A stretch of 64,000 bases of DNA from Octopus vulgaris. Lineage: Eukaryota. This document shows positions 41,887-56,657 of this stretch, one piece after another. The stretch is from the NCBI GenBank assembly GCA_951406725.2, contig OX597827.1:54560001-54624000 (forward strand), in the 5' to 3' direction. Made by a program: the position numbers and the translations under genes. The notes beneath the pieces are model-generated. The model searched no databases, had not been told where the DNA came from, and was given only the letters and a program-made list of their open reading frames with translations. The first letter of the stretch is position 1; every line of letters begins with the position of its first letter.

Positions 41887-42274
41887 GGGTTGAAAGACAG
41901 GCAGATGTGCAGATAGAGAAGCAGGTTGATGGGAAAACAGGCAGGTGTAAAAATGGATGGACAGGCAAATAGGCAAACAAATAAGCAGACTAATGAACAG
42001 GTAGAAAGTGAATGGAGAAATGACCCAAGAGACAACCAGGACTGTAGGCAGATAGGAAGATTTTCTTAAATCAAATCCTGTTTGGGTCAAACTGACTTGT
42101 TGTTTAACCCCAGGTCGGATTTGATGAAGCAGACACCTTGTCAAATTCTACCTGTGACTATTCATCATCAATCCTTTGACGTCCATTTTCCATGCTCACA
42201 TGGGCTGCACTGATTAACAGGAGCAGGTAAGTAAGAGAGCTGCAACAAGTTCTAGTTGGATTTTGCTTGGTTTC

Positions 42275-43140
42275 TTATTTCTTTATTGCCCACAAGGGGC
42301 TAAACATAAAGGGGACAAACAAGGACAGACAAAGGGATTAAGTCGATTACATCGACCCCAGTGTGTAACTGGTACTTAATTTATCAACCCTGAAAGGATG
42401 AAAGGCAAAGTCGACCTCAGCGGAATTTGAACTCAGAACATAACAGCAGACGAAATACCGCTAAGCATTTCGTTGGCATGCTAACATTTCTTATTTCTTT
42501 ATTGCCCACAAGAGGCTAAACATAGATGGAACAAACAAGGACAGACAAAGGGACTAAGATGATTACATCGACCCCAGTGCTTAATTTATCAACCCCAAAA
42601 GGATGAAAGGCAATGTCGACCTCAGCGGAATTTGAACTCAGAACATAACAGCAGACGAAATACTGCTGAGCATTTCGTTGGCGTGCTAACATTTCTTATT
42701 TCTTTATTGCCCACAAGAGGCTAAACATAGAGGGAACAAACAAGGACAGACAAACGGATTAAGTCGATTACATCGACCCCAGTATGTGACTGGTGCTTAA
42801 TTTATCGACCCCGAAAGGATGAAAGGCAAAGTCAACCTCGGCGGAATTTGAACTCAGAACATAACGGCAGACGAAATACCGCTAAGCATTTTTTCAGCGT
42901 GCTAACATTTCTTATTTCTTTATTGCCCACAAGGGGCTAAACATAGAGGGGACAAACAAGGACAGACAAAGGGTTTAAGATGATTACATCGACCCCAGTA
43001 TGTAACTGGTGCTTAATTTATCAACCCCAAAAGGATGAAAGGCAAAGTCAACCTCGGCAGAATTTGAACTCAGAAAGTAACAGCAGACGAAATACTGCTA
43101 AGCATTTTGCCAGCATGCTAACATTTCTGCCAGCTCGTCG
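42275..43140 (-). mobile_element. Head-to-tail array of four SINE B units inside an RTE 3' fragment (42163-43380)
   Basis: Units start at about 42275, 42491, 42696 and 42912; all three internal junctions read gctaacatttc|ttatttctttattgccc. Confidence 0.92.
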
Positions 43141-55783: not shown

Positions 55784-55825
<42 letters not shown>

Positions 55826-55903
55826 CAGACAGACAGGGTCAGTCGCCATGATAGATTGTTAGCCACGACACATTTTTTTTTCTCTCTTGTTTTTTCTGTG
55901 TCC

Positions 55904-55939
55904 CTTTCTGTAGAAGAGCGTAGGCTCGAAACGTAAAAG
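55904..55939 (+). ncRNA. Minimal hammerhead-like motif in a Penelope-type terminal repeat
   Basis: CTTT-CTGTAGA-A-GAGC(GTAG)GCTC-GAAAC-GTA-AAAG. Core position A6 is U. Confidence 0.6.
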
Positions 55940-56026
55940 ACTTTTTCTATTCCTGAGCATTATACTAATACATCTCTTTGTTTTGTACACCACCTGTCTT
56001 CGTCTTTTGTTTTTTTCGTAAACTCT

Positions 56027-56065
<39 letters not shown>

Positions 56066-56164
56066 TAATCCAAACATGAAAACACAAAGAGAAAACACAA
56101 CAACACGAGGATGTGGAACAAATATAGTATTATTGGTTGCTCAGGAAGGAATGGAAGAAGGAGG

Positions 56165-56199
56165 GTTTTACATTTCGAGCGGAGCTCTTCATCAGAAAC
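56165..56199 (-). ncRNA. Minimal type-I hammerhead motif in a Penelope-type terminal repeat
   Basis: GTTT-CTGATGA-A-GAGC(TCC)GCTC-GAAAT-GTA-AAAC. C to T at the CpG of the palindromic stem III. Confidence 0.68.
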
Positions 56200-56657
56200 A
56201 TAGGAAAAGGAAAGATCCAGAGAAGGGAAGACGGGGGAAAAAAAAACGCCAACAGTACACACGAGGTCACATTATATATATATATACACATACACAAACA
56301 CATCCAATGTCATCAGTGGAGTTAGTGTCAAAAGTTGTGCCATCTGCTGCTGGACAGAAATTCCATTTTGGAGAGATGTAGGAGGGTGTAGCTGGTGTTG
56401 GTGGGATTGTTGACCAAATTCTGAGCAACATTTATCACAAAAAATTTTAAAACAAAATCAAAATAGGCTAAGTAGTCACCCAAGACTCTGCGGTAGAAAA
56501 GCTCTCAAACTCCTTTGTTTACATAGAGTTTATAAAGACATGATGCACTACAAATATTTGTACAGCATCCTACCTGCAAGGTACCAGTGCATGATGAGTA
56601 GAAATCATCACCATGAATAAAGAGACTTGTAATTTCCATTTCCTTTCCTTTATGTCT

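What the first reader, a model, noticed from the sequence alone, without database searches (positions are those of the whole stretch)
55836..56270. Two diverged hammerhead-bearing elements facing each other across a (TA)n tract, with compensatory base changes
Seen: a plus-strand unit and a minus-strand unit both read towards the central (TA)n (about 56030-56060). Each has a minimal hammerhead: CTTT-CTGTAGAA-GAGC..GCTC-GAAACGTA-AAAG and GTTT-CTGATGAA-GAGC..GCTC-GAAATGTA-AAAC. Stem I covaries (CUUU/AAAG vs GUUU/AAAC) and the stem II loop differs while the GAGC/GCUC helix is kept. Established: Penelope-like elements and retrozymes carry minimal type-I hammerheads with palindromic stem III that act as dimers, and often leave inverted terminal repeats. 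Inference: these are short non-coding, TA-targeting, ribozyme-bearing retroelements or solo pseudo-LTRs of two sister families. The CUGUAGA core may be a family-wide variant or decay.
Basis: partly seen in the sequence, partly recalled or inferred. Interest (0 to 1): 0.8.

Follow-up and report, generated by a model that had tools for sequence, protein, structure and literature searches.

The report
Penelope retrotransposon ends with variant hammerhead
Two roughly 200-base end pieces of two related Penelope-type jumping genes, likely inserted independently into one TA repeat, are ordinary, but one lineage, which includes young intact elements, has fixed a change at a normally invariant letter of its self-cutting RNA motif, and whether that motif still cuts is untested.

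Summary
In detail: two minimal type I hammerheads face each other across (TA)16; 0 such motifs arose in 40 shuffled windows. [quoted passage not shown] They are not retrozymes and not one inverted-repeat element. The two lineages are about 62% alike in protein, both insert in (TA)n, and show no tail-to-tail preference. Covariation is one stem I pair. The minus-strand copy's odd letters are CpG decay. The plus-strand CUGUAGA core is not decay: U replaces A6 in 12,174 exact matches versus 267 with A6, through five successive subfamilies, including young intact elements with ORFs of about 1,060 codons. Across those subfamilies 0 of 29 core and stem columns change; within the motif only N7 and H17, the two free positions, do. 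Short copies end about 100 nt upstream of the cut site and, in three samples, never at it. Natural A6C is published; I found no A6U report, but the key paper on such variants was unavailable. Verdict: new variant of a known kind; cleavage untested.

The parts
55786..55819 (.). (TA)17 tract at the 5' side of unit A, likely part of the original target microsatellite
   Evidence: sequence
55838..56029 (+). Unit A: solo pseudo-LTR (3' end) of a Neptune-like Penelope element, CTGTAGA subfamily; begins at TCAGTCGCC, where family 5' ends cluster
   Evidence: 92-96% to the 39 other listed copies; 94% to the end of ORF-bearing copy L274; 5'-end cluster
55904..55939 (+). Minimal type I hammerhead with U at core position 6 (55911), N7 = 55912, H17 = 55935; predicted cut after 55935; palindromic ACGU stem III
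56030..56061 (.). (TA)16 tract shared by the 3' ends of both units
56062..56272 (-). Unit B: solo pseudo-LTR of a sister Penelope lineage with canonical A6 core; starts at the family's 5'-end cluster (ATGTGACC)
   Evidence: 93-94% to the 39 other listed copies; older copies lie downstream of RT-EN in L250/L457, L247, L249/L456
56165..56199 (-). Minimal type I hammerhead, CUGAUGA core, two CpG-decay changes (N7 and loop III); predicted cut after 56169
56273..56286 (.). short (TA)n at the 5' side of unit B
   Evidence: sequence

Best explanation
Units A and B are the 3' end pieces (solo pseudo-LTRs) of two sister Penelope-like retrotransposons, likely of the Neptune group, that likely inserted independently into one (TA)n tract; lineage A carries U instead of A at hammerhead core position 6, and the motif is likely still under selection though its cleavage is untested. 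Shown: linkage of both ends to RT plus GIY-YIG ORFs, TA targeting, a sharp cluster of 5' ends about 100 nt upstream of the cut site, fixation of U6, and invariance of the rest of the motif. Inferred mechanism: a promoter in the pseudo-LTR starts an RNA at that cluster; the element protein nicks (TA)n DNA and begins reverse transcription at the pseudo-LTR's 3' end; on short or uncleaved linear templates it stops at the RNA's 5' end and leaves a ~200-nt solo copy such as these two. Full-length copies come from a template copied for more than one unit length, either a hammerhead-made circle or a strand transfer between the two pseudo-LTRs. I judge it somewhat more likely than not (about 55%) that the U6 motif is kept as a fold or protein-binding site with little cleavage, and about 35-40% that it still cleaves usefully in vivo.
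For: Long copies of A are collinear with YFLPKIHK, RPIVS, RYIDD, CSRPRCRTC and CSLCxxLYIGQT. Intact pLTR-ORF-pLTR copies exist, unit 4.45-4.58 kb, 95-99.4% identical to L261; Pfam RVT_1 E=1.6e-7, GIY-YIG E=0.0076, the latter below its cut-off. The window's own subfamily ends ORF-bearing copies L274, L227, L234 at 78-88% protein identity to the intact ORF. B ends copies whose RT-EN is 62% identical (L250/L457). 5' ends: 27 of 74 rows at 202-219 nt from the 3' end in the young subfamily, 18 of 30 at -100 to -112 in B and 14 of 30 at -87 to -100 in A; none at the cut site. U6 12,174 vs A6 267; B has A6 in 95 of the first 100 of 5,198. 0 of 29 core/stem columns vary over five U6 subfamilies vs 18 of 64 strict flank columns, p=6e-4. 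Internal RT start at the pLTR-ORF junction and insertion without hammerhead cleavage are shown for an anole element (PMC11167929).
Against: No transcription start, cleavage or circle was observed; the start site is inferred from genomic 5' ends only. No intact full-length copy of the window's own subfamily or of lineage B was found among the loci examined. Neptune versus Nematis was not resolved by a tree. Loop II (GTAG) is as invariant as the core, so conservation could be of a DNA or protein-binding sequence rather than of a ribozyme. Subfamily samples for the older U6 groups are small (4 and 6 copies). The own-versus-other pLTR test was favourable over whole overlaps (10 of 11, 1 tie) but mostly tied over 380 nt in 18 copies (own closer in 4, farther in 3).
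Confidence: 0.8

Rival explanations
1. The U6 hammerhead is a working ribozyme, slow or dependent on the element protein or on a particular ion, that cuts the two pseudo-LTRs of a transcript to give a circular template; rolling round the circle makes the long partial tandems.
For: Only N7 (all four letters) and H17 (A to U, never G as a subfamily letter) change across subfamilies, the pattern expected of a hammerhead (same two positions vary in four public runs). 0 of 19 junction-crossing young copies have an upstream pLTR ending at the 200-220 nt cluster; 18 are 397-1,389 nt, one is 91 nt, so their template has no 5' end there. Natural A6C keeps activity in Mn2+ (PMC7151607); the anole hammerhead cleaves only with its protein (PMC11167929).
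Against: Changes at A6 lower activity (PMC3088659; PMC7151607 for Mg2+). No 5' ends at the cut site in 74, 30 and 30 rows. Upstream pLTR lengths are bounded (none above 1.4 kb, one below 390 nt), which a plain circle does not predict. Strand transfer between pLTRs explains the same lengths without cleavage.
Confidence: 0.37
2. The U6 motif is catalytically dead and is conserved only as DNA (an internal promoter element downstream of the start site) or as a rod-like hairpin bound by the element protein.
For: Loop II is invariant too. U6 can pair with A15.1 in a predicted extended hairpin that hides the ACGU palindrome. Hammerhead mutants do not affect insertion in vitro (PMC11167929), and hammerhead-less Naiads proliferate (PMC8557442).
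Against: Variation falls exactly on the two positions a ribozyme leaves free. Folding energies did not separate U6 from A6 copies.
Confidence: 0.4
3. The two units are arms of one element or one insertion event (an inverted terminal repeat or self-primed inversion).
For: Inverted arrangements are common in Penelope elements (PMC8557442; opposite-strand hammerheads 100-700 bp apart in PMC4209133); tail-to-tail pairs recur (L003, L027, L040, L069/L070).
Against: A and B belong to separate lineages (support 99) and align only around the hammerhead (75% over 53 nt). Of the 29 other top A loci, 2 hold a near-full B within 1.5 kb, of which one is tail-to-tail. Head-to-tail neighbours are at least as common (5 vs 3).
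Confidence: 0.04
4. The ~200-nt units are now independent SINE-like or retrozyme-like non-coding elements, amplified from solo copies by the Penelope protein in trans; this may hold for B in particular.
For: 0 of 30 B copies anchored at the 3' end extend beyond -112; the youngest B clade is mostly solo copies; the ORF-linked B copies found are old and broken.
Against: No tandem arrays of short units or canonical type I hammerheads as in retrozymes (PMC7229834; 10.64898/2026.07.22.740005). L040, 94% like unit B, does extend into the long 3' UTR. In lineage A, solo and ORF-bearing copies share the same subfamily letters.
Confidence: 0.25

Closest known systems
Minimal hammerheads of metazoan Penelope-like elements (Cervera and De la Pena 2014, PMC4209133)
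   Same: Type I, no real stem III, palindromic 15.1-16.1 segment, extra base between 9 and 10.1, G10.1-C11.1, 4-5 bp stem I, thousands of solo copies, some on opposite strands 100-700 bp apart.
   Different: Their reported core exception is U3-A8; the passages and supplement rows I saw all have A6. Lineage A here has U6 fixed. Stem II is 4 bp.
Neptune-group Penelope-like elements (as defined in Craig et al. 2021, PMC8557442)
   Same: RT followed by C-terminal GIY-YIG, CX2-5CxxC linker, CCHH motif, partial tandems forming pLTRs, microsatellite targeting, hammerhead in the pLTR.
   Different: Clade not fixed by a tree (Nematis shares the linker). Long C/T- and C/A-rich 3' UTR (about 0.7-0.9 kb in A, about 1.9 kb in B).
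Poseidon element of Anolis (Frangieh et al. 2024, PMC11167929)
   Same: AT-rich targets; RT start at the pLTR-ORF side of the junction; no reads or copies ending at the hammerhead cut.
   Different: There the ORF starts inside the hammerhead and RT starts in the ORF; here the cut site is about 104 nt upstream of the 3' end and the ORF starts about 620 nt past the junction.
Bcep176 A6C hammerhead (Perreault 2011, PMC3088659; PMC7151607)
   Same: Natural change at core position 6.
   Different: A single phage example with C, full stem III, tested in vitro; here U, minimal fold, more than 12,000 copies, untested.
Non-LTR retrozymes (Cervera and De la Pena 2020, PMC7229834; Li et al. 2026 preprint)
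   Same: Short, non-coding, hammerhead-bearing, related to PLE pLTRs.
   Different: Retrozymes are tandem repeats with canonical type I hammerheads; these are dispersed solo copies with minimal ones.

Membership tests
Penelope-like element (EN+) | One ORF with RT and C-terminal GIY-YIG nuclease upstream of the unit | tested here: met
   P0002 from L255; RVT_1 E=1.6e-7, GIY-YIG E=0.0076 below cut-off; 842 homologues, several with precomputed PF01541; B-linked RT-EN broken but present
Penelope-like element (EN+) | Partial tandem forming direct pseudo-LTRs, with 5'-truncated copies | tested here: met
   19 junction-crossing copies in lineage A; not seen for lineage B
Penelope-like element (EN+) | Hammerhead in the pseudo-LTR | tested here: met
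Neptune group | CX2-5CxxC linker and CCHH motif | tested here: met
   CSRPRCRTC; CSLC...EH...RH in P0002; motif definition from PMC8557442 passages
Neptune group | RT groups with named Neptune elements, apart from Nematis | not tested
   No named reference set was at hand; best named homologues are unannotated turtle, gastropod and shark proteins
Neptune group | Insertion in microsatellites | tested here: met
   29 of 30, 24 of 27, 66 of 74 vs 4-7% background
Minimal type I hammerhead | Core CUGANGA ... GAAA ... UH | tested here: not met
   Met by lineage B (95 of 100); lineage A has U6, all other core letters met
Minimal type I hammerhead | Stems I and II with covariation; palindromic stem III | tested here: inconclusive
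   95% of cells paired, one pair with two-sided change, hand-picked rows; ACGU palindrome in both families, broken in the window's B copy
Minimal type I hammerhead | Self-cleavage after H17, as a dimer | not testable with these tools
   Needs an assay; no genomic 5' ends at the site
Non-LTR retrozyme | Tandem short repeats, each with a canonical type I hammerhead | tested here: not met
   Copies are solo; about 6% have any neighbour within 200 nt

The most novel reading that the evidence does not exclude
A currently amplifying Neptune-like retrotransposon runs on a hammerhead with A6 replaced by U: the ribozyme is off in short transcripts, which are copied into ~200-nt solo ends, and is switched on by dimerisation plus the element's own protein or a particular ion to make the circular template from which every full-length copy is rolled. 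It would be the first natural U6 hammerhead I could find and, at more than 12,000 copies, a very abundant core variant.
Probability: 0.3. Interest if true: 0.72.

Novelty: new variant of a known kind. Interest (0 to 1): 0.45.

Why it matters
What hammerheads do in Penelope-like elements is an open question: they are nearly universal, yet slow in vitro and dispensable for insertion in the one reconstituted system. This genome offers a natural contrast: two sister lineages, one with the canonical core and one that changed a near-invariant core base and went on amplifying through five subfamilies, with intact young elements to hand. If U6 cleaves, the catalytic core is more tolerant than mutagenesis suggests and standard CUGANGA searches miss whole families. 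If it does not, the motif is conserved for something other than cutting, and long partial tandems arise without a circle. Either result is informative. The facing pair in the window is itself unremarkable.

Tried and rejected
Rfam scan: no hammerhead family reached E<=5; hits were microsatellite artefacts. Folding: no z-score support; double-hammerhead versus hairpin energies did not separate U6 from A6 copies and ignore core contacts. Expression: no RNA holder listed on record; 14 holders were only guessed to be RNA and all were contigs. Laying four of them showed contigs across the pLTR-5' UTR junction and no splice joints; this is no evidence on transcription, starts, ends or introns. L151, first suspected to be the partner of B, is a different Penelope element (29% identity). 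L240-L242, a tandem of related ORFs, has no A or B end. Inverted-repeat reading rejected. The own-versus-other pLTR identity test is weak. Literature: 'A6U' with hammerhead and catalytic core gave 0 papers; 'CUGUUGA' with hammerhead gave 2 unrelated papers; hammerhead, Penelope, octopus gave no description of this family (listing only for three of four); the 2026 octopus repeat paper has 0 uses of hammerhead, ribozyme or Neptune. Lunse et al. 2016 (PMC5785218), the paper most likely to list such variants, is not held. One of three supplement files of PMC4209133 could not be searched; supplements of PMC8557442 and PMC13282606 were not opened and may hold these families. Earlier scan notes: one unrelated note by sequence, none by words or place.

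Full report
Observation. A scan for core plus stem I plus stem II found exactly these two in the 64-kb window and none in 40 shuffled windows. The two units align only around the hammerhead, 75% over 53 nt. Rfam has no model that catches them. The window lies in a 2.8-Gb assembly with about 30 large contigs; from size and recalled repeats I take it to be an octopus, which is inference.

Both units are high-copy repeats. The best 40 places for each are 92-96% (A) and 93-94% (B) like the window copy. One exact pattern covering both lineages has 25,781 matches and 0 in the reversed control. Copies end at a fixed 3' point followed by (TA)n: 29 of 30 for B, 24 of 27 with a recognisable end for the window's A subfamily (30 examined), and 66 of 74 rows for the youngest A subfamily, against 4-7% of background positions.

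They are ends of Penelope-like elements. Longer A copies run upstream through a C/T- and C/A-rich 3' UTR into a GIY-YIG nuclease, a CX4CXXC linker and RT motifs in order. A protein search returned dozens of places with the same score and open frames up to 1,200 codons. Of 20 fetched for long frames, 13 are pLTR-ORF-pLTR or nearly so, 95-99.4% identical to L261, with a unit of 4.45-4.58 kb. The ORF has RVT_1 (E=1.6e-7) and a GIY-YIG hit below cut-off (E=0.0076), and 842 homologues at E<=1e-20. The window's own subfamily ends copies with partly broken ORFs 78-88% identical to it. B ends older, broken copies whose RT-EN is 62% identical, with a UTR near 1.9 kb. The linker and CCHH motifs fit Neptune or Nematis as defined in PMC8557442 (passages); I ran no RT tree.

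The facing arrangement is not special. A and B are separate clades (support 99). Among 134 distinct sampled copies, neighbours within 200 nt were 3 tail-to-tail pairs, 5 head-to-tail, 0 head-to-head, after merging one pair counted twice and dropping one split element. TA tracts lie on all sides of both units, as expected if two insertions split one microsatellite. PMC4209133 (main text parts 1-2 of 4) already notes opposite-strand minimal hammerheads 100-700 bp apart.

Covariation is thin. In 17 hand-picked rows, 95% of cells pair, one stem I pair shows two-sided change (C-G, G-C, G-U, A-U, U-A, U-G; 4 rows unpaired), and stem II never varies. The window's B copy has two CpG-decay changes; its family reads CUGACGA and ACGU and has A6 in 95 of the first 100 listed of 5,198 matches.

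The U6 core is the real result. With the lineage A stem II, U6 followed by A, C or G gives 12,174 matches and A6 gives 267; the U6-U7 form was not counted alone but is carried by 45 of 46 readable young copies anchored outside the motif. In the first 100 listed matches of the joint pattern, all from the start of one contig, 77 of 85 with a 4-nt loop have U6 and 0 of 15 with a 3-nt loop do. A tree of 93 of 183 units, with positions 6 and 7 left out and A6 copies deliberately over-sampled, shows a basal A6 grade, then U6 subfamilies in the order N7 = C, G, A, U, with A6 copies scattered singly inside them (quick method, many weak forks, 16 changes needed in all). All the intact young elements have U6. 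Across five U6 subfamilies (4, 6, 30, 20 and 32 copies) 0 of 29 core and stem columns change their commonest letter, against 70 of 156 flank columns, or 18 of 64 under a strict filter (p=6e-4). Inside the motif only N7 and H17 (A to U) change. Loop II is invariant too, which a purely catalytic constraint would not need. Contigs of four public runs under four organism codes show the same picture: N7 and H17 vary at 4-60% of depth, with no row at position 6 at a 3% threshold, though four rows were hidden and contigs drop rare variants.

5' ends. In samples anchored downstream of the predicted cut, 5' ends cluster about 100 nt upstream of it: 27 of 74 rows in the young subfamily (the 74 include 2 edge artefacts, 2 duplicates and 6 rows the alignment could not resolve; 16 extend further), 18 of 30 in B (none further), and 14 of 30 in the window's A subfamily (2 further; some shorter ends are alignment artefacts). 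None lies within 5 nt of the cut. Both window units start in these clusters, A at TCAGTC, which resembles an initiator motif (recalled). I infer a start site in the pLTR. By contrast, 0 of 19 copies that cross the pLTR-5' UTR junction have an upstream pLTR ending at that cluster: one is 91 nt and 18 are 397-1,389 nt (7 of the 20 loci cross). If they stopped there as often as short copies do (27 of 43), the chance is 2e-8. So long copies use a template with no end there, or jump. Whether each copy's two pLTRs were copied from one template is only suggested: own closer in 10 of 11 over whole overlaps, but 4 closer, 3 farther and 11 tied of 18 over 380 nt.

Mechanism. Established for an anole Poseidon element (PMC11167929, parts 1-2 of 4): the protein nicks AT-rich DNA, starts reverse transcription inside the RNA near the pLTR-ORF junction, does not need hammerhead cleavage to insert, and its hammerhead cuts only with protein present. 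Applied here by inference: RT starting at the pLTR 3' end on an uncleaved linear RNA runs about 200 nt to the RNA's 5' end and leaves a solo copy like A or B. Full-length partial tandems need more-than-unit copying, by a hammerhead-made circle (proposed in PMC4209133) or by strand transfer between pLTRs. The first needs U6 to cleave; the second does not. Changes at A6 lower activity, and the one natural case I found, A6C in phage Bcep176, is poor in Mg2+ but works in Mn2+ (PMC3088659 and PMC7151607, passages). I put useful cleavage at 35-40%.

Novelty. Penelope ends with minimal hammerheads in (TA)n are known. I found no report of a natural U6 core (supplement search of PMC4209133, showed A6 in the rows returned), but Lunse et al. 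2016 was not available and may list it. An octopus repeat survey counts recently active Penelope families without mention of ribozymes (PMC13282606, passages). Other papers seen: the 2026 retrozyme preprint (part 1 of 5), PMC6765202, PMC3846280, PMC7229834, PMC6155905 (passages). Verdict: new variant of a known kind, interest 0.45; 0.72 if U6 proves catalytic.

Noticed in passing
L108 (-) 2158; L146 (-) 853; L458 (+) 5546: A third minimal-hammerhead family with the U3-A8 core covariation (UUGAUAA) and a 6-nt palindromic stem III, like the Schistosoma variant in PMC4209133.
   Followed up: no
L101 (-) 493; L075 (-) 51; L255 (-) 1820: Further canonical-core hammerhead-like motifs with other stems, likely other Penelope families.
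   Followed up: no
L151 980-3068 (+): A distinct Penelope element, RT plus nuclease region with one frameshift, about 29% identical to the lineage A protein, with an insert after the LPKIHK motif.
   Followed up: partly
L255-L273, L435-L453: Upstream pLTR lengths of full-length young copies are bounded: none above 1,389 nt, several ending at 1,200-1,390 nt near the linker-coding region, only one below 390 nt. Unexplained.
   Followed up: partly
L152 5800-8700: A lineage B copy with its nuclease part inverted and the RT core apparently deleted, a typical 5' inversion.
   Followed up: partly
L240-L242: Three tandem, decayed RT-nuclease units about 6.0-6.4 kb apart, related to lineage B's nuclease but without an A or B end.
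   Followed up: partly
L106 (+) 1400-1630: A chimeric copy: lineage B 5' part joined at the hammerhead to a lineage A stem II and 3' part, suggesting template switching at the shared core.
   Followed up: no
window 42271-43128: Four tandem 216-bp copies of a dispersed repeat also at about 17753, 26052, 37237 and 41390.
   Followed up: no
window 15588, 19255, 27059, 28163, 32433, 36736, 61455 (+) and 14326, 22172, 34964: A SINE-like dispersed family of about 200-230 nt, several copies beside (CA)n/(TA)n.
   Followed up: no
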